A DNA stretch of 64,000 nucleotides from a virus, in IMG/VR virus record IMGVR_UViG_3300045988_148153, positions 381 to 64,380 of that record; one strand, 5' to 3'. Position numbers and translations under genes: made by a program. The notes below the pieces were generated by a model, which was given only the letters and a program-made list of their open reading frames with translations, had not been told where the DNA came from and made no database searches. Position 1 is the stretch's first letter, and each line of letters begins with the position of its first letter. Below, piece by piece: positions 3,231 to 64,000 of the stretch.

Positions 3231-3397
3231 TTATATCCCGGATTGGTATATCCCTAATAAATAACCATAATTATTAACTAAACGCCCTCTGCTCACGCAG
3301 AAGTCCCGTGAAAGGTTCGGGTTAAGTGAAATCAGCTAACAGTTAACTATCCCGGTGTGGCTTGACCGCCTATCCGGGAGCAATTTGTTAACCTGCC

Positions 3398-3425
3398 TGC
3401 CCGGTCTGTGAAGATATGGCGGGCA
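3398..3425 (+). other. GC-stem hairpin presenting the conserved loop GGTCTGTGAAGATA (copy 1)
   Basis: Stem TGCCC/GGGCA encloses the loop ggtctgtgaagatatggc. The same 14-mer sits in a hairpin loop at 63578-63591. The hairpin lies in a 345-nt non-coding gap. Confidence 0.5.
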
Positions 3426-3576
3426 AACGGGGAATATGGTAGCGTTGAACGTATTGGATGGTTATTCTTTTTGATTGCCAATTAGTATTAGTTATTCATG
3501 AGTTTATTATCATCTACCATCCAGCAAAACAACGTGCTCTGTTCGATTCGGAGCTTCCCACTAAATATAACTTATC

Positions 3577-28463: not shown

Positions 28464-29312
28464 TTATGCAGCAGGGTCAATTTCACCCTTAATCTGCTTG
28501 ATGGCTCTCCTCGCATTCCACTCGTTTTCGTACAAGGCGATAATGAAGCGTCTGCCCCTTTCAGTCCATACCGTATATACATTGGTTCCTATCGAACCGT
28601 CCGAACGAGTATATGTCTGGGTACGGGTGGAGTGTAATCCCCAAGTAGAGTAGGGAGAGTGGAGTAACCATTGTCCCGATTGGCGATAGATAATTCCTGC
28701 TTCCTTTAGTTTCTTGTGCAGTTTCTCTGCGTCCATTCCTATCTGCTTGGCGATTTGTGTGCTCGTCAGAGTATTTACGCTTTGCAGGTGATTGTTGTAG
28801 TAGGTGACTTTGGGAGCCGCTTCCTTGATTTCCTTGTCTTGCAGTTCGATGGTGGCTTGCTGTTGCTCCGTTTCAGCTTCAAGCTGCTTTAACCGTTCCT
28901 CTCTTTTTGCAAGCGTGGCTTGTGCGATGGTTAGCGCACGTGCCATGATTTCTTCGGGAGTATCGTTTGGGACGGTGGAGATGTAGCCGCCAGTGGTTCG
29001 TACTTCGTGAAGGATTTGTTTAACTCCTTTCTTGAATTGTTTGGCGATTGGCTTGCGGGATTGCATGAGGACTTCGTATAATCCCCCTTCTGTAAGCATC
29101 CAAACTTGCTGATTTCCACCGGGGGTTACGAATTGTGTAACACCTTTCTCGTCATCATCTACTAAAGACAACATGTGAGAAATGTTGTTGTGATTAATAA
29201 CTTCTGCTACATCTTTTGCACGAAACAGAGGTTCCTCAACTGTTCCGTAAACAGTGAATTGCCGTCCACACAATTCTGTTTGTTTTAGGACTTGAATAGG
29301 ATTTGTTAGCAT
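28464..29312 (-). CDS. Bro-N domain antirepressor-like protein
   Basis: FTVYGTVEEPLFRAKDVAEVI...GGLYEVLMQSRKPIAKQFKKGVKQIL is a Bro-N domain, followed by a coiled coil and a C-terminal DNA-binding-like region. Start set at the ATG at 29312 (MLTNPIQ). Confidence 0.7.
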   Translation of the reverse strand: MLTNPIQVLKQTELCGRQFTVYGTVEEPLFRAKDVAEVINHNNISHMLSLVDDDEKGVTQFVTPGGNQQVWMLTEGGLYEVLMQSRKPIAKQFKKGVKQILHEVRTTGGYISTVPNDTPEEIMARALTIAQATLAKREERLKQLEAETEQQQATIELQDKEIKEAAPKVTYYNNHLQSVNTLTSTQIAKQIGMDAEKLHKKLKEAGIIYRQSGQWLLHSPYSTWGLHSTRTQTYTRSDGSIGTNVYTVWTERGRRFIIALYENEWNARRAIKQIKGEIDPAA

Positions 29313-29691
29313 AACAAAAAAAATGCACCTACTACGAGCTGCTAACAAATCCATAAGATTAATGTCGGAGGCGTTTCCGCTACTCCACTCGGTAGGTGCA
29401 ATATCTTTAAAGTATGATATTACTATAATATGTCTTGGCAAAAAAAATAACTCTATATGGTAGAGCCATAAGAGTTTGCCTCTCTTATGAACTTGTTAGC
29501 ACTGCAAAGATAGATATAATCTTTAAAGATGCAAACTTCTTATAAGAAAATCAACTGTTTATGTGAATTTTCTAAGTTTTTATGCGAATATATAGAAAAT
29601 TTTCTATTTGCCACAAGTTTGATATATTATAAAAGCATAAACATGTTACATAACATACCCAATATAATTACAACAGATGTTAATAAAGACG

Positions 29692-57180: not shown

Positions 57181-57321
57181 ATGTATTTAGGTTTTGTGCT
57201 TTGGGTAATCTTGCTAATTGTTATCTTATGGAATATTAGTCCAGCGCTGGTTATTACATCAGCTTTGATAGGCATTGCTCTTGCGATAGGGAAAACAAAA
57301 GATAATAAATCAGGTGAATAA
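57181..57321 (+). CDS. possible 46-aa membrane peptide
   Basis: ATG ORF MYLGFVLWVILLIVILWNISPALVITSALIGIALAIGK... that ends 1 nt before the integrase ATG. Confidence 0.3.
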   Translation: MYLGFVLWVILLIVILWNISPALVITSALIGIALAIGKTKDNKSGE

Positions 57322-57322
57322 T

Positions 57323-58165
57323 ATGGAGACTTTAAAGAACGTGTTTTTGAAGAAATACCCGCAATACGAGAAAGTTTTACGAGTATACGAAGAGGTTAAT
57401 AAAGTAGAATGTACATTCGACAGCATAACAAAGCCGAGGCTGTACAACTTTGTTCAGGCTCTTAATGAAAGAGTAGCCACCAATAGCGCTAAAACCTATT
57501 GCGCTATGCTTAAATCGGTTCTTAATCTGTATAATGATGTATATTCCTTCCCGAAAGGTTTCGAGGTTATATTGACCTTGAAAAAGGACGCTACGCAAAG
57601 TACATGGTTAACGGACGACGAGATAAAAACACTGTTGGCATATAACCCGATTAACGATACGGAACGGGCTGTGAAAAACTGCTTTTTGCTCGGTTGTCTT
57701 ACCGGTGCCAGGCATTCAGATTACATCAACTTTACGGATGATAATATAATAGACGGACGACTGATATACATTTCCCAGAAAACGAAAACAAAGGCCGAAA
57801 TACCTGCGGCGCCTGCCGTGTTGCGTATTCTGAAGGAAAACCGGGAATATGGTATCAATGAACGAAAGGTTTCGGATGTGACATTTAACGATACGATAAG
57901 AAGTATTTGCCGCCGGTGCGGGATAAATAAGCGGATAAAACTATATCAGGCGGGTGAATATATAACCGGTGAAAAGTGGGAGTTTATTTCCTCGCATTCC
58001 GCCCGGAAGTCTTGCGCAACCAACTTATATTTAAGAGGTGCGGATTTGTATTCTATCAGCCGGATGTTGGGGCACTCCAGCGTAACGATGACCGAAACGT
58101 ATATATGTTGTGGGCTGCGTGAATTGTCGGATAAGGTTATGGGGTATTTCAAAGGTTTTGAATAA
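57323..58165 (+). CDS. small tyrosine recombinase / integrase
   Basis: GARHSDY (Arg I), SHSARKSCAT (HxxR) and LGHSSVTMTETY (His ... Tyr nucleophile). Start set at the ATG at 57323. Confidence 0.8.
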   Translation: METLKNVFLKKYPQYEKVLRVYEEVNKVECTFDSITKPRLYNFVQALNERVATNSAKTYCAMLKSVLNLYNDVYSFPKGFEVILTLKKDATQSTWLTDDEIKTLLAYNPINDTERAVKNCFLLGCLTGARHSDYINFTDDNIIDGRLIYISQKTKTKAEIPAAPAVLRILKENREYGINERKVSDVTFNDTIRSICRRCGINKRIKLYQAGEYITGEKWEFISSHSARKSCATNLYLRGADLYSISRMLGHSSVTMTETYICCGLRELSDKVMGYFKGFE

Positions 58166-58698: not shown

Positions 58699-58760
58699 AT
58701 AACCCAGTGGGTTATTTCGTTTGTTTTGGGTTGAATTTAACCCACTGGGTTGTTTGGGTT
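58699..58760. repeat. palindrome cluster; 58725-58760 is a perfect 36-bp inverted copy of 4547-4582
   Basis: ATAACCCAGTGGGTTAT lies at 58699-58715 and AACCCACTGGGTT at 58739-58751. The 36-mer identity was checked base by base. Confidence 0.85.
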
Positions 58761-59537
58761 ATAACTTGCTGTCCATCTTTTCAAATTCTTCCTGTACGGA
58801 CTTGTTCAATACTTTGGCGTATATCTGGGTCGTTTTTATGTCTGTGTGCCCCAACATTTTAGCGAGATTTTCAATAGACACTCCCATATTTAAAGCCATT
58901 ACCGCAAAACTATGCCTTGCCATATGGGAATGAAGGCTTAATTTGATTTTAGCAAGTTCTTGAACGATTTTCAGTCTTAAATTATATTGGTAATTGCTGA
59001 TAGCCGGCAGTTTGAAATCATATTTTCTCAATATTTCCATTGCGGGTTTGAGAAGCATAAGGAAATACTCCTCTTGAGTTTTTACTCTTACATCCCTTAT
59101 AAAGAATTTATTCTTTCTCTCTATAACCGTGCTGAAATCGAATTTAAACAGGTCTGCATACGACAATCCGGTAAAACATTGAAATATGAATAAGTCTCTC
59201 ACTTTATCAATGCTTTCAGAAGCTATTTCTAAGCTCCGTATTTGATTTATTTGTTCTATGGTGAGGTATTTTATTCCTTCGCTTTTTCCCCTGTCGAATT
59301 TGAGCTTATTATAGGGGTTTTCTTTGATAAGCTCGTATTTTATCGATTCGTTTATGTATCTCTTTAGCCTTTTATGATAGCCGTGTACCGTCCAACATCT
59401 ATTTGTATGCTATTTCTTCCATTCCTTGCATTGGAAAGTTTTTGTTTGGTCAAATCTGGAATCTCTTTGCATAAAGAGGCTCCGCTTATACCGACTTTGT
59501 CAAGTATTTCAAAAAACCTTTTTGTGACATCACCCAT
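58759..59537 (-). pseudogene. second small tyrosine recombinase, split by one frameshift
   Basis: The catalytic part (HSHMARHSFAV, LGHTDIKTTQIYAKV) lies in an open frame at 58759-59409. A 57-codon ATG ORF (59364-59537) in another frame supplies the N-terminus. Confidence 0.6.
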
Positions 59538-61080: not shown

Positions 61081-61287
61081 ATGAAAATAACAAGAGAAGA
61101 TATTTTGAAGATAAAACCTGGGAGTTCGCTCAAGGTACGCTTAAGTGATTATAGGGCTTGCGATTCGGCGAGGGCTATTGCTTATAGAACTGCACTGGCA
61201 GACCCAAGGCCGGATGTGGAGAGGTATAAAGTATCCATTAATACGAAGACATGGGAATTAACAATTACAGCTATTAAAAAGTCATGA
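61081..61287 (+). CDS. hypothetical small protein
   Basis: 68-aa ORF with an ATGA overlap onto the next gene. Confidence 0.5.
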   Translation: MKITREDILKIKPGSSLKVRLSDYRACDSARAIAYRTALADPRPDVERYKVSINTKTWELTITAIKKS

Positions 61288-61532
61288 CCCGTACAGAAGC
61301 AAGAATCTTAGCAGAAGAATTGTACAAACTTATGCGCAAGGATGTGAAAATGTTTGTAGAAGCAACGGTGGTAAAATGCTCTGATGAATGGGTCGGGGTA
61401 GGAGAGCCCGCCGAAATTCTTGGATGTTCAACAGGAACTCTTTATAACAATATATCTAATATTCCTCACACAAAGAATGGTAGACTTCTTCGGTTTAAAA
61501 AATCAGCATTGATTAAATATTTGGAAAGATGA
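61284..61532 (+). CDS. excisionase-like / MerR-type HTH DNA-binding protein
   Basis: WVGVGEPAEILGCSTGTLYNNISNIPHTKNGRLLRFKKSALIKYL fits the Xis/HTH_17 pattern. Confidence 0.6.
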   Translation: MTRTEARILAEELYKLMRKDVKMFVEATVVKCSDEWVGVGEPAEILGCSTGTLYNNISNIPHTKNGRLLRFKKSALIKYLER

Positions 61533-61765
61533 AAACCTACGATTTAAACAGAGCCTCTCGGCTTGCACTTCGGATAGCCTTAGTTATTGCGGTAATGGCA
61601 GGATGTATATACAGCGGCCATGTGGAATACAACGACGATGTGTTATCCGGCATGAGTTCTGATAAGTACGACTTTATCAGTATCCAGATAAATGACAGTT
61701 CGCAGTCGGCGGTAGTATCCGAGTATATGAGCAACAAGCAGTACTACGACAGCCTCGACTATTAG
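61529..61765 (+). CDS. small membrane protein
   Basis: 78-aa ORF with one TM segment (LALRIALVIAVMAGCIY). Confidence 0.5.
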   Translation: MKTYDLNRASRLALRIALVIAVMAGCIYSGHVEYNDDVLSGMSSDKYDFISIQINDSSQSAVVSEYMSNKQYYDSLDY

Positions 61766-61774
61766 AAAACATCT

Positions 61775-61891
61775 TCCCTCTTATCTCAGCCAGACAGAGT
61801 GTCGCCTCGGTTATTATTCGTGAAAGTTTAGTTATTTCCGGTCTGTGTATTCCGGTGGTGAAGGTCGCACGTTCGAATCGTGCAGAGGGAG
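61775..61891 (+). tRNA. tRNA-like element with a 50-nt anticodon loop (interrupted tRNA-Arg(CCG)-like)
   Basis: It has a perfect 7-bp acceptor stem (TCCCTCT/AGAGGGA), U8, a D arm (TCTC-AGCCAGACA-GAGT), an anticodon stem (TCGCC/GGTGA), a variable loop (AGGTC) and a T arm (GCACG-TTCGAAT-CGTGC). The last 7 nt of the oversized loop read TTCCGGT. Confidence 0.5.
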
Positions 61892-62344
61892 CATTATACA
61901 TAGTTCTTTGACATGATTAGATATATAATATAAGATATATTTCTGCGTAGGCACAGAAGCGAAGCCCGGACGGGTGGATAGTGGTGGGTGCAAGTGGAAC
62001 GGAATTGACACCGATAGCAACCAAGGATAAGCCGATGACGGGCGAATGGTTGCAAATGTCTGATAGTGGTAAAGCCACAAAGTTGAAACGAACTTTCTTT
62101 CAGCCAAGAAAATCATCTTTACTTGTGCAAGTATGCGGGGTAGGTGTCCGTATCGCTGAAAGATACAGGTCATAAAGACAACATAAGCGTCCGATACAGT
62201 CTTAAATCGGTATAAAGTAGCGGTGGTAATGAAAGGCGGCCGTACACGCTTATTATATATACTCCCTTCCCGTCAAATTCGGGCACGCTGAAAAGCCAAA
62301 CACGTATTGTTGCGTTGAGGGGAGCACTTAATATTGAAATTAAT

Positions 62345-63240: not shown

Positions 63241-63569
63241 AATTAATAAATTTTAAAATTCGACAATAGCAAAAGTAACAATAAAAAACAAAGGGCGCAT
63301 CTTGTTCCATGATAATTTTAAAATTCGGCACTTTAAATTTTATTTGGTGTGCCCTTTATCTCCTTTTCCTGACAATGACGTGATGCCGCCAATCGAATTG
63401 GCTCAGGGGAACAAAACTGTAAAAAATATGCAATGTTGGTATTTGGTTCATTCACGAACCTTGTTTTCAGACATGGCAAGCCCCCGTTCGTGAGAATAGA
63501 GGCTTTCCTTCGGAGTTAGGACATGCGTTATTGCATTCCAGACTATAGATGAAGTATTTGTTTAGTCGT

Positions 63570-63602
63570 AGCCGGGCGGTCTGTGAAGATAGTCCGGTTT
63601 TT
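63570..63602 (+). other. hairpin presenting the conserved loop GGTCTGTGAAGATA (copy 2), followed by a T-run
   Basis: 8-bp stem AGCCGGGC/GTCCGGTT (two G-U pairs), a 14-nt loop identical to 3403-3416, then TTTTT. Confidence 0.5.
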
Positions 63603-63628
63603 ATTTGAAACCCACTAATAACAATTAT

Positions 63629-64000
63629 ATGAAAACATTTGAAGAATTAAAAGAAGAACTATTAATCCGCGCCAAAAATGCTGGCGCATGTCAAGCTGGC
63701 TATGCAATGGGATTAAGAAGTAATACAAAATCCGACCTGTTAAAAGCCATTACTGAAAATTGGTTTTGGGTTTTGAGGAGTGCAAAGATTGTCGATGCCA
63801 AATACCTGGAAGACAACTTCACGGAAGAGGAGTTATCGGAAGCCGGTATTTATATCAGGAATACCCATGAGGTTAGAACAGTCTCATTTGCCTGCGGCAG
63901 TGCAACGGTGAAAGCCTACGACAGTGCAACGGTGAAAGCCTGCGACAGTGCAACGGTGGAAGCCTACGACAGTGCAACGGTGAAAGCCTACGGCAGTGCA
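63629..64000 (+). CDS. repeat-containing protein (5' partial; runs off the window), paralog of 34805..35311
   Basis: It starts at the ATG at 63629 and the frame is open to the window end. It ends in SATVKAYD-type octapeptide repeats. Confidence 0.6.
   Translation, partial: MKTFEELKEELLIRAKNAGACQAGYAMGLRSNTKSDLLKAITENWFWVLRSAKIVDAKYLEDNFTEEELSEAGIYIRNTHEVRTVSFACGSATVKAYDSATVKACDSATVEAYDSATVKAYGSA
63898..64000. repeat. 24-bp tandem repeat (at least 4 copies, continuing beyond the window)
   Basis: cagtgcaacggtgaaagcctacga units with point variants, in frame within the CDS. Confidence 0.85.

What the first reader, a model, noticed from the sequence alone, without database searches (positions are those of the whole stretch)
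61775..61891. tRNA-like element with a canonical cloverleaf but a 50-nt anticodon loop
Every helix of a tRNA is present with correct spacing. These are a perfect 7-bp acceptor stem, U8, A14, A21, a 4-bp D stem (one U-U), a 5-bp anticodon stem, the variable loop AGGTC and a textbook T arm (GCACG-TTCGAAT-CGTGC), with discriminator G. However, 50 nt sit where a 7-nt anticodon loop belongs. The last 7 nt (TTCCGGT) form a proper loop with U33, anticodon CCG (Arg) and R37, so 43 nt appear to be inserted right after the 5' anticodon-stem strand. The insert contains a second TTCCGGT and a CCGG-stem hairpin whose loop resembles the GGTCTGTGAAGATA motif found elsewhere in this phage. Bacterial tRNA introns are normally group I introns of more than 200 nt, so a 43-nt insertion is atypical. 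It could be a novel short intervening sequence, a tRNA-derived regulatory RNA, or a tRNA pseudogene or att relic near the integrase/Xis genes.
Basis: seen in the sequence. Interest (0 to 1): 0.7.

Follow-up and report, generated by a model that had tools for sequence, protein, structure and literature searches.

The report
Phage tRNA-like RNA, oversized anticodon loop
A family of temperate phages of human-gut Bacteroides carries a strictly conserved gene for an RNA that folds like a transfer RNA but has 28-50 extra bases where the 7-base anticodon loop should be, a kind of RNA that standard tools miss and whose role is unknown.

Summary
Window 61775-61891 (+) folds into a complete tRNA cloverleaf with 50 nt in place of the 7-nt anticodon loop. 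ARAGORN calls it tRNA-Arg(CCG) with a 43-nt "intron" only when introns are allowed. Default ARAGORN and Rfam find nothing.

About 200 phage and metagenome contigs carry the same element at the same locus, after an HTH_17 (Xis-like) gene and a small lipoprotein gene. There are four types, with loops of 50, 43, 28 and 29 nt. The tRNA body is conserved, with some compensatory changes. The element never occurs without the insert and is never split. It is an island of near-identity (diversity 0.008-0.016) between flanks at 0.2-0.6, and the insert is as conserved as the body.

No host genome has a tRNA with this T arm and acceptor stem, so it is not an att relic or a pseudogene. It is not a group I intron and forms no BHB motif. 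Two of the four types cannot restore an anticodon loop, the Arg identity base A20 is absent, and CGG codons are rare.

My best reading is a non-decoding tRNA-scaffolded RNA released by tRNA-processing enzymes. Splicing to tRNA-Arg is not excluded. Related phages carry a second scaffold with 50-140-nt inserts.

The parts
61775..61891 (+). Complete tRNA-like element (family F1, type A), 117 nt, from acceptor position 1 to discriminator G73
   Evidence: Sequence. ARAGORN -i call. Conserved in about 200 contigs, with homology starting exactly at position 1.
61775..61781 (+). Acceptor stem 5' strand TCCCTCT; pairs with 61884-61890
   Evidence: helix 1, 100% of cells paired; C2-G71 alternates with U2-G71.
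61784..61800 (+). D arm TCTC-AGCCAGACA-GAGT. A14, G18 and A21 are present. Position 19 (61794) is A here and G in every other copy.
61802..61806 (+). Anticodon-stem 5' strand TCGCC; pairs with 61857-61861 GGTGA
   Evidence: helix 3, 100% paired; 31-39 shows C-G in type A and U-A in types B-D. L001 and L009 carry wobble-compatible changes.
61807..61856 (+). 50-nt module in place of the 7-nt anticodon loop. It is as conserved as the tRNA body. It holds two TTCCGGT copies (61836-61842, 61850-61856), whose CCGG cores can pair to form a hairpin with loop TCTGTGTATT.
   Evidence: Diversity of the payload is 0.019 against 0.013 for the body and 0.24-0.6 for the flanks. Type B has the homologous CCGG-TAATTT-CCGG.
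61850..61856 (+). TTCCGGT next to the 3' stem strand: an anticodon-loop-like heptamer (U33, CCG, G37). Present in types A and B only.
61862..61883 (+). Variable loop AGGTC and T arm GCACG-TTCGAAT-CGTGC
   Evidence: T stem invariant.
61884..61891 (+). Acceptor stem 3' strand AGAGGGA plus discriminator G. No CCA is encoded (CA follows).
61284..61532 (+). HTH_17 (excisionase-like) DNA-binding protein gene. Always linked to the element, on its 5' side.
   Evidence: Pfam PF12728. PHROG HTH DNA-binding protein. Same linkage in all loci.
61529..61765 (+). 78-aa small lipoprotein or membrane protein gene whose stop codon lies 9 nt before the element. Part of the conserved left-hand module.
   Evidence: All 50 loci found through this protein carry an F1 element of one of types A-D downstream. 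The lipobox VMAGC is my own reading of the translation.
61908..61936 (+). Promoter-like site (TTGACA-17-TAAGAT) immediately 3' of the element. No terminator-like site lies between them.
   Evidence: This is a consensus match only.

Best explanation
The element is a gene for a stable, non-decoding tRNA-like RNA of temperate Bacteroides/Phocaeicola phages. It probably derives from a tRNA-Arg(CCG) gene.

Proposed mechanism:
- It is transcribed as the last part of the early rightward operon (Rha, orf68, HTH_17, lipoprotein). This step is inferred from gene order and the lack of a promoter or terminator of its own.
- The intact acceptor stem, T arm and D/T elbow make it a substrate for RNase P at the 5' end. 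RNase Z and the CCA-adding enzyme would act at the 3' end. Together these would release an RNA of about 117 nt (110 nt in type B). This step is inferred from the conserved tRNA body.
- The 28-50-nt module that replaces the anticodon loop is the functional part and the tRNA body is a processing and stability scaffold. This is supported by the module being as conserved as the body, but the target is not identified.
- In types A and B the module carries two UCCGGU motifs that can pair into a CCGG/CCGG hairpin. That would either sequester or display a tRNA-Arg(CCG)-like anticodon loop.
- A plausible role is as a decoy or binding platform for a host or phage factor that recognises tRNA. This last point is speculation.
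For: 1. The full cloverleaf with all the tertiary-interaction bases is conserved and shows compensatory or wobble changes.
2. About 200 contigs carry the element, in four discrete types (A 50-nt, B 43-nt, C 28-nt, D 29-nt loop). None lacks the insert.
3. It is an island of conservation. In type B the element has diversity 0.008 and the payload 0.015, against 0.2-0.46 in the flanks. In type A the values are 0.016 and 0.019 against 0.24-0.6. The insert is therefore under the same constraint as the body.
4. Types C and D keep a perfect body but have no heptamer with U33 and a purine at 37 that excision of one segment could restore (and my own inspection). The anticodon is therefore dispensable.
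5. Position 20 is C. A20 is a major ArgRS identity element in bacteria (established knowledge, not tested here).
6. CGG makes up only 9.7% of Arg codons in the window's ORFs.
7. Related phages carry a second scaffold (F2, with a Leu-like body). Its acceptor, D and T arms are constant, while the segment between the D and T arms is swapped for unrelated inserts giving elements of 105-189 nt. Its 'anticodon' varies (GAA, AAA and others). LoVEphage has a related element annotated tRNA-Undet.
8. In LoVEphage the position after the HTH gene holds a plain hairpin instead of F1. This fits a role at the 3' end of that operon.
Against: - There are no expression, processing or binding data.
- No conserved secondary structure for the module could be derived across all four types.
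- No complementary target stood out in the window or in the flanks.
- Types A and B, which make up about 97% of copies, retain a textbook Arg(CCG) anticodon loop (UUCCGGU with G37), variable loop AGGUC and G73. This is what a spliced functional tRNA would need.
- Within-type invariance could partly reflect recent spread rather than selection.
- Types C and D are rare (3 and 4 contigs).
Confidence: 0.5

Rival explanations
1. It is an intron-containing tRNA-Arg(CCG). The 43-nt (type A) or 34-nt (type B) insert lies 5' of an intact UUCCGGU loop. It would be removed by an unknown mechanism that is neither group I nor BHB-dependent, for example host nucleases plus an RNA ligase. The product would be a 75-77-nt decoding tRNA.
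For: ARAGORN -i calls Arg(CCG) for types A and B. U33, CCG, G37, variable loop AGGUC and G73 resemble bacterial tRNA-Arg(CCG) (my comparison from memory with E. coli argX). The insert can pair with the anticodon (UCGG/CCGG), as introns do in other domains of life. Lak megaphages of Prevotella have tRNAs with short 'enigmatic introns' that are identical across cohorts (PMC6784885). The related LoVEphage encodes RtcB.
Against: Types C and D cannot restore an anticodon loop. A20 is absent. No intron-less allele exists in about 200 contigs. No BHB motif forms: there is a 1-nt bulge instead of 3-nt bulges, and the putative cleavage sites would remove the anticodon (and inspection). Rfam finds no ribozyme or group I intron. 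tblastn finds no RtcB in the window or the fetched loci. CGG is a rare codon in this phage. The F2 sister family shows no constraint on its anticodon.
Confidence: 0.2
2. It is a purely cis-acting processing or 3'-end element ('tRNA punctuation'). The tRNA-like fold would exist only to let RNase P and RNase Z cut the transcript between the lysogeny-side operon and the next early transcription unit, and the released RNA would have no function of its own.
For: The element sits 9 nt after a stop codon and 17 nt before a promoter-like site, with no terminator between them. F2 elements also sit at operon ends, about 45 nt before a conserved terminator hairpin. LoVEphage has a simple hairpin at the equivalent place. 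RNase P and RNase Z need only the acceptor stem, T arm and elbow (established knowledge).
Against: This does not explain why the 43-50-nt module is as invariant as the body. It also does not explain why the anticodon stem is kept by compensatory change.
Confidence: 0.17
3. It is a DNA-level site: an attP core or arm region, or another protein-binding site near int/xis. The tRNA likeness would be a relic of integration into a tRNA gene.
For: The element lies near integrase genes (57314-58165 and 58759-59202) and next to an HTH_17 excisionase-like gene. It contains direct TTCCGGT repeats 14 bp apart. Type C carries AACCGGAA, the reverse complement of type B's TTCCGGTT. An island of conservation is also typical of att sites.
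Against: The element is never split in about 200 contigs, including about 20 contigs of at least 100 kb. No host tRNA shares the sequence. Both flanks are phage genes. Homology begins exactly at tRNA position 1 and includes the D arm, which an att core does not need. The excess of TTCCGGT in the window is explained by trinucleotide composition.
Confidence: 0.05
4. It is a decaying tRNA pseudogene disrupted by a chance insertion, or a chance fold.
For: The window copy has a unique G19-to-A change. Default tRNA finders reject the element.
Against: ARAGORN -i made 0 calls in 1.28 Mb of shuffled sequence. Conservation is extreme relative to the flanks. The stems show compensatory changes.
Confidence: 0.03

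Closest known systems
tRNAs with 'enigmatic introns' in Lak megaphages of Prevotella (Devoto et al. 2019, PMC6784885)
   Same: These are phages of Bacteroidales. A tRNA gene carries a short (<100 nt) insert in the anticodon loop that is not a group I intron. The insert sequence is identical across cohorts, and the mechanism is unknown.
   Different: Lak inserts are predicted at the canonical 37/38 position and are about 93 nt. Alleles with and without the intron exist, and the anticodon is kept. Here the insert lies 5' of the anticodon-like heptamer, no insert-less allele exists, and two of the four types have no anticodon.
Group I intron-interrupted bacterial tRNA genes (tRNA-Leu UAA, fMet, Ile, Arg CCU)
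   Same: The insertion is in the anticodon loop of a bacterial-type tRNA gene.
   Different: Group I introns are roughly 200 nt or longer, with P1-P9 helices. Here the inserts are 21-43 nt and Rfam finds no group I match.
Archaeal and eukaryal protein-spliced tRNA introns (bulge-helix-bulge, EndA/TSEN plus RtcB/Trl1)
   Same: These are short inserts in the anticodon arm that can pair with the anticodon.
   Different: No BHB geometry forms and the insert is not at 37/38. No splicing endonuclease or ligase was found in the window (RtcB tested; the endonuclease was not systematically tested).
tRNA-like non-coding RNAs: the tmRNA tRNA-like domain, YrlA (bacterial Y RNA), mascRNA, MHV68 viral tRNA-like TMERs, T4 stable RNAs C and D (all recalled from memory)
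   Same: A tRNA-like fold is used for processing or recognition without decoding. In tmRNA the acceptor and T arm formed by the two ends enclose a large foreign insert.
   Different: There is no Rfam match to tmRNA or YrlA. There is no G3-U70, tag ORF or Ro-binding helix. In YrlA the acceptor stem is closed by a loop, whereas here the conserved block ends exactly at the acceptor termini.
Synthetic 'tRNA scaffold' for RNA expression (Ponchon and Dardel 2007, recalled from memory)
   Same: The architecture is identical: a foreign RNA replaces the anticodon loop of an otherwise intact tRNA, so that cellular tRNA enzymes process and stabilise it.
   Different: That is an engineered device. A natural phage equivalent has, to my knowledge and from the literature searches, not been described.
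LoVEphage MW660583 feature 29237-29439, annotated 'tRNA-His / tRNA-Undet', joined
   Same: It belongs to the same phage group (terminase 57% identical). It is a tRNA-like acceptor, D and T scaffold enclosing an insert of about 110 nt. It is the same scaffold as L003:4459-4588.
   Different: It belongs to the F2-like scaffold, not to F1. The paper only counts it among 'nine tRNA genes'.

Membership tests
Canonical decoding tRNA (bacterial or phage) | Cloverleaf with 7/4/5/5-bp stems and conserved U8, A14, G18G19, A21, T54-Psi55-C56 and A58 | tested here: met
   The window copy alone has G19 changed to A.
Canonical decoding tRNA (bacterial or phage) | 7-nt anticodon loop with U33 and a purine at 37 | tested here: not met
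   The loop is 50 nt (28-43 nt in the other types). Default ARAGORN and the Rfam tRNA model give no hit.
Canonical decoding tRNA (bacterial or phage) | Identity elements for the cognate synthetase (Arg: A20, C35) | tested here: not met
   Position 20 is C in all types. C35 is present only in types A and B. The identity rule comes from the literature and was not tested in Bacteroides.
Canonical decoding tRNA (bacterial or phage) | Aminoacylation and use on the ribosome | not testable with these tools
   Needs acid-urea northern blots or tRNA sequencing.
Group I intron in a tRNA | Intron of roughly 200 nt or more with a conserved P1-P9 core | tested here: not met
   The insert is 43 nt. No Intron_gpI hit even at E<=10.
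BHB (protein-spliced) tRNA intron | Two 3-nt bulges separated by a 4-bp helix, with the splice sites in the bulges | tested here: not met
   The best extension of the anticodon stem is a 4-bp UCGG/CCGG helix with a single 1-nt bulge. Cutting there would remove the anticodon.
BHB (protein-spliced) tRNA intron | Splicing endonuclease and RNA ligase available | tested here: inconclusive
   No RtcB in the window or loci. The endonuclease and host enzymes were not surveyed. LoVEphage has RtcB.
Lak-type phage tRNA 'enigmatic intron' | A phage tRNA with a short, highly conserved insert in the anticodon loop that is not a group I intron | tested here: met
   Compared.
Lak-type phage tRNA 'enigmatic intron' | Recognisable anticodon retained, and alleles with and without the insert | tested here: not met
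   Types C and D lack an anticodon loop. No insert-less allele exists in about 200 contigs.
attP site or tRNA-derived att relic | A block of identity with the 3' part of a host tRNA gene | tested here: not met
   0 hits, then 1 hit (a prophage copy), among 185,579 species genomes.
attP site or tRNA-derived att relic | Split into attL and attR halves in lysogens | tested here: not met
   The 5'- and 3'-anchored scans always return the whole element, including on contigs of 100-286 kb.
tmRNA or YrlA tRNA-like ncRNAs | Match to the family covariance model. For tmRNA, G3-U70 and a tag ORF. For YrlA, a Ro-binding helix. | tested here: not met
   No Rfam hit. ARAGORN -m finds no tmRNA. Pair 3-70 is C-G.
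tRNA-scaffolded ncRNA (working class proposed here) | A constant acceptor, D and T body with a non-anticodon module that is itself under constraint | tested here: met
   The parallel F2 family is shown.
tRNA-scaffolded ncRNA (working class proposed here) | Released as a discrete stable RNA by RNase P and RNase Z | not testable with these tools
   Needs northern blots, RACE or in vitro cleavage assays.

The most novel reading that the evidence does not exclude
Types A and B are genuine pre-tRNA-Arg(CCG). Their short insert lies 5' of the anticodon and is removed by a so far unknown, non-group-I, non-BHB splicing or repair pathway in Bacteroides or its phages. That would be the first protein-dependent, or RNase P/Z-dependent, tRNA splicing described in Bacteria, and it might also explain the 'enigmatic introns' of Lak megaphages.
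Probability: 0.15. Interest if true: 0.9.

Novelty: new variant of a known kind. Interest (0 to 1): 0.62.

Why it matters
These phages are relatives of LoVEphage and are common in human-gut metagenomes. Here the element turned up in about 200 contigs.

The element and its sister scaffold F2 are invisible to default tRNA finders and to Rfam. They are therefore either left unannotated or auto-labelled 'tRNA-Undet'.

If the tRNA body is a natural scaffold for interchangeable RNA modules, this would be a new way for phages to make stable small RNAs. It would be the natural counterpart of the engineered tRNA scaffold. It could also point to new interactions between phages and the host tRNA machinery or tRNA-targeting defences.

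If the insert is instead spliced, it would reveal a new tRNA-splicing route in Bacteria.

Either outcome can be tested directly. Inducible, engineerable Bacteroides and Phocaeicola prophages of this group have been isolated (BI-TP1 and PV4-TP1; PMC12629997 listed).

Tried and rejected
- att relic. The exact 24-mer of the T arm and acceptor stem gave 0 hits in 185,579 species genomes. A degenerate version covering all four types gave only a Bacteroides gallinarum prophage copy. No second copy or half-copy exists in the window.
- Known RNA families. Rfam at gathering scores and at E<=10, and on 11 related loci, gave no hit for F1 or F2. There was only a weak partial DUF2693 hit downstream of the element, and RT-17 RNA elsewhere.
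- A common fold for the insert. Minimum-free-energy and suboptimal folds of each type and RNAalifold on types A and B (where MAFFT misaligned the inserts) gave no shared structure beyond the CCGG/CCGG hairpin. A candidate helix GGUUAY/RUAUCC has one compensatory change between types A and B, but a G4-to-A variant (L230) contradicts it.
- An antisense target. The duplexfold scan of the 50-nt module against both strands of the window showed no outlier other than the module's own antisense (one search timed out). Shared complementary 8-mers in the flanks are confounded by relatedness.
- A link to the GGTCTGTGAAGATA hairpins. That hairpin is the same in phages carrying F1 types A, B, C and D, so it does not co-vary with the module.
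- TTCCGGT as a genome-wide motif. It occurs 22 times against 6.5 by dinucleotide shuffles, but 13-15 are expected under order-2 or order-3 Markov models.
- Codon demand. CGG is rare.
- Origin of the body. Comparison with LoVEphage tRNAs was uninformative.
- Literature. Four full-text searches found no description of such elements. The DUF2693 search found nothing useful.
- GenBank phages. No record contains F1 or F2.
- Plasmids. No match.
- A T-arm-like sequence at 3536-3556 did not extend to a tRNA-like fold.

Full report
**1. The observation**

Window 61775-61891 (+) reads TCCCTCT-TA-TCTC-AGCCAGACA-GAGT-G-TCGCC-[50 nt]-GGTGA-AGGTC-GCACG-TTCGAAT-CGTGC-AGAGGGA-G. Every helix and spacing of a class I tRNA is present, except that 50 nt (61807-61856) replace the 7-nt anticodon loop.

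- Default ARAGORN finds no tRNA in the whole window.
- Rfam finds no tRNA, intron or ribozyme at gathering scores or at E<=10.
- With introns allowed, ARAGORN calls exactly this element as tRNA-Arg(CCG) with a 43-nt intron.
- The same setting gives no call in 20 shuffles of the window.
- The two TTCCGGT copies are at 61836 and 61850.

**2. It is a conserved family, not an accident**

A 24-mer covering the T arm and the acceptor 3' strand found 13 IMG/VR contigs with the same element, insert included. These had two unrelated left flanks and four right flanks, and homology began exactly at tRNA position 1.

Loci were then retrieved through the neighbouring 78-aa protein. This was followed by a degenerate 3'-anchored scan of metagenomes (87 contigs) and a 5'-anchored scan of viral contigs (113 contigs). 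Together these show four types at the same locus:

| Type | Element length | Loop length | Viral + metagenome contigs |
|---|---|---|---|
| A (the window's type) | 116-117 nt | 50 nt | 13 + 10 |
| B | 110 nt | 43 nt | 97 + 74 |
| C | 95 nt | 28 nt | 1 viral contig, plus L023 and the B. gallinarum prophage |
| D | 95 nt | 29 nt | 2 + 2 |

On an alignment of 14 distinct sequences the cloverleaf pairs 98% of cells, against at most 56% for slid controls. Pair 31-39 switches C-G to U-A, and pairs 2-71, 7-66, 10-25, 28-42, 29-41 and 30-40 vary on one side. Those changes keep a standard or wobble pair everywhere except 10-25, which is U-U in type A. The window copy is the only one with A at position 19 (61794).

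**3. Constraint**

Among 80 distinct 910-nt stretches of type B, pairwise diversity is 0.008 in the element and 0.015 in the insert. It is 0.2-0.46 in the flanks. For type A the values are 0.016 for the element, 0.019 for the insert and 0.013 for the body, against 0.24-0.6 for the flanks. The insert is therefore as constrained as the tRNA body. This excludes a decaying pseudogene. It also argues against the insert being a free spacer.

**4. Not an att site**

- No genome among 185,579 species representatives has a tRNA with this T arm and acceptor stem. The first scan gave 0 hits and the degenerate scan gave 1, and that hit is a type C prophage copy in Bacteroides gallinarum DSM 18171.
- Neither half of the element ever occurs alone, although the scans were anchored on each half separately. 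About 20 of the contigs are 100-286 kb and must contain host DNA.
- Both flanks are phage genes.
- The conserved block includes the acceptor 5' strand and the D arm, which an att core does not need.

**5. Context**

The element always follows an HTH_17 (excisionase-like) gene and a small lipoprotein or membrane protein gene, in either order.

In the window these belong to a rightward operon that starts with a Rha gene (60110). That operon is divergent from a small HTH ORF on the other strand, and integrase genes lie at 57314-58165 and 58759-59202. The stop codon of the upstream gene is 9 nt before the element. A promoter-like site follows at 61908-61936, and no terminator-like site lies between them.

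The left flank co-varies with the type of the element, whereas the right flank recombines freely. The window begins with phage recombination and methylase genes. The closest named phages are LoVEphage, BI-TP1 and PV4-TP1, with 57% terminase identity. None of the GenBank phages contains the element.

**6. Intron or scaffold?**

Evidence in favour of an intron:
- Types A and B keep UUCCGGU (U33, CCG, G37) directly before the 3' stem strand, together with variable loop AGGUC and G73. From memory, this matches bacterial tRNA-Arg(CCG).
- The insert can pair with the anticodon.
- Lak megaphages of Prevotella have tRNAs with short 'enigmatic introns' (PMC6784885).
- LoVEphage encodes RtcB.

Evidence against an intron:
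- Types C and D keep an impeccable body, but no excision of a single segment can restore a loop with U33 and a purine at 37 (inspection).
- Position 20 is C, whereas A20 is a principal ArgRS identity element in bacteria (literature knowledge).
- There is no insert-less allele.
- There is no BHB geometry, no group I intron and no small ribozyme.
- There is no RtcB in the window or in the fetched loci.
- CGG is only 9.7% of Arg codons.

**7. A sister family points to scaffolding**

ARAGORN with introns allowed also revealed a second tRNA-like scaffold, F2. It lies 1-5 kb downstream in related phages but not within this window. In the closest relative, L007, it lies 4.7 kb downstream of F1, which is beyond position 64000 here.

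- The scaffold reads TGCGACA-TG-GCGG-AATGGTAGA-CG...TCCCGG-TTCGAGT-CCGGG-TGTCGCA-A. It is Leu-like in its D loop and has A73.
- The region between its D and T arms is replaced by unrelated inserts, giving elements of 105, 107, 108 and 189 nt.
- ARAGORN assigns it inconsistent anticodons (His, Leu, Pyl, Phe, Ser), and the putative wobble base varies within a version.
- LoVEphage has a related element at 29237-29400, auto-annotated as a joined 'tRNA-His/tRNA-Undet'. Its paper merely counts nine tRNAs.
- F2 is followed about 45 nt later by a conserved terminator-like hairpin.

In LoVEphage the place of F1, after the HTH gene, is occupied by a plain hairpin. Both families therefore sit at the ends of transcription units, and both keep exactly the parts of a tRNA that RNase P, RNase Z and the CCA-adding enzyme recognise.

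**8. Best explanation**

F1 is a non-decoding tRNA-scaffolded RNA. It is derived from a tRNA-Arg(CCG)-like gene and is released from the 3' end of the early operon by the tRNA-processing enzymes. A constrained 28-50-nt module is its functional part.

Shown:
- the fold
- the family and its four types
- the constraint on the module
- the absence of att behaviour
- the absence of known intron features

Inferred:
- transcription with the upstream operon
- processing by RNase P and RNase Z
- a function in trans

Speculative: that the module acts as a decoy or binding platform for a tRNA-recognising factor. In types A and B the module holds two UCCGGU motifs able to form a CCGG/CCGG hairpin with loops of 10 or 6 nt. 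All within-type variants fall outside those stems.

I give this explanation 0.5, splicing to tRNA-Arg 0.2, a purely cis-acting punctuation element 0.17, a DNA-level site 0.05 and a pseudogene or chance fold 0.03.

**9. What could not be resolved**

- No common secondary structure of the module could be derived across all types.
- No antisense target was found.
- The similarity of the type A module to the GGTCTGTGAAGATA hairpins is limited to the 8-mer GGTCTGTG plus a CCGG stem. That hairpin is the same in phages of all four types.

**10. Novelty**

tRNA-like non-coding RNAs and phage tRNAs with unexplained short inserts are both known. This particular architecture has not been described in the literature I could search, is absent from Rfam and is not annotated in GenBank phages. 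Its defining points are an obligatory, conserved module placed 5' of, or replacing, the anticodon on an intact body, occurring in discrete types, alongside a parallel scaffold with swappable inserts. I therefore class it as a new variant of a known kind, with moderate to high interest.

Noticed in passing
Related loci, e.g. L007:5159-5266, L024:4964-5068, L003:4459-4588 (-), L087:11195-11383; LoVEphage MW660583 29237-29400 (L152): A second tRNA-like scaffold (F2, Leu-like D arm, A73). Its acceptor, D and T arms are constant, and the segment between the D and T arms is replaced by unrelated inserts of about 50-140 nt (elements of 105, 107, 108, 130, 164 and 189 nt). ARAGORN assigns it inconsistent anticodons. 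In LoVEphage it is annotated as a joined 'tRNA-His/tRNA-Undet'. It is not present in the window.
   Followed up: partly
window 3390-3425 and 63568-63605 (+); same motif in most related loci: A hairpin with a conserved 14-nt loop GGTCTGTGAAGATA and covarying stems (CCGGGC/GTCCGG, TGCCCG/CGGGCA, CCTACTC/GAGTAGG). The 63568 copy is followed by a T run, so it is terminator-like. In relatives it sits about 45 nt after the F2 element. It could be a regulated terminator or a protein-binding site.
   Followed up: partly
window 61903-62325 (+): A conserved non-coding stretch of about 400 nt directly after the element. It is 82% identical to two human-faecal 'Bacteriophage sp.' records (MT839827, MT835900). 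It gives a weak partial match to Rfam DUF2693 RNA (15 bits against a gathering score of 81). It has a promoter-like site at 61908-61936. It may be a long leader or another structured RNA.
   Followed up: no
window 29321-29401 (-): c4-2 RNA (RF02944), 55 bits, above the gathering score. This is a P1/P7-type antisense immunity RNA, which in P1 is itself matured by RNase P (the RNase P point is from memory).
   Followed up: no
window 61794: The window copy has A where all other roughly 200 copies have G19, the base that pairs with C56 at the tRNA elbow. It could be a sequencing error, or a slightly impaired copy in this particular genome.
   Followed up: yes
window 58759-59202 (-) and 57314-58165 (+): Two convergent tyrosine-integrase ORFs. 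The second contains only the C-terminal 147 aa of the catalytic domain. LoVEphage has the same convergent pair with a full-length (379 aa) second integrase. The window's second integrase may therefore be truncated or frameshifted.
   Followed up: no
window 63890-64000 (+), inside the ORF starting at 63629: A 24-nt tandem repeat (GCCTRCGRCAGTGCAACGGTGRAA) encoding 8-aa repeats (ATVKAYDS-like), running off the end of the window. A related locus has a protein with GAASATGN repeats (L003 8829-9932).
   Followed up: no
L006:10769-10845, L010:3233-3309 (-), L126:2405-2481: RT-17 RNA (RF03020, 41.5 bits against a gathering score of 40.4) lies about 4 kb downstream of the element in some related phages. 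This motif is associated with reverse-transcriptase genes.
   Followed up: no
window, whole: The heptamer TTCCGGT occurs 22 times on both strands, against 6.5 expected from dinucleotide shuffles. Order-2 or order-3 Markov expectations are 13-15, so composition explains most of the excess.
   Followed up: yes
window 3262-3576 (+): A 315-nt intergenic region containing one copy of the conserved-loop hairpin and a T-arm-like CTCTG-TTCGATT-CGGAG at 3536-3556. Its fold z-score is -2.25. No tRNA-like fold was found.
   Followed up: partly
LoVEphage MW660583 39267-40532 (L152): The related LoVEphage encodes an RtcB RNA ligase and eight ordinary tRNAs. Neither the window nor the fetched loci encode RtcB. 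This bears on whether some phages of this group repair or splice tRNA-like RNAs.
   Followed up: partly
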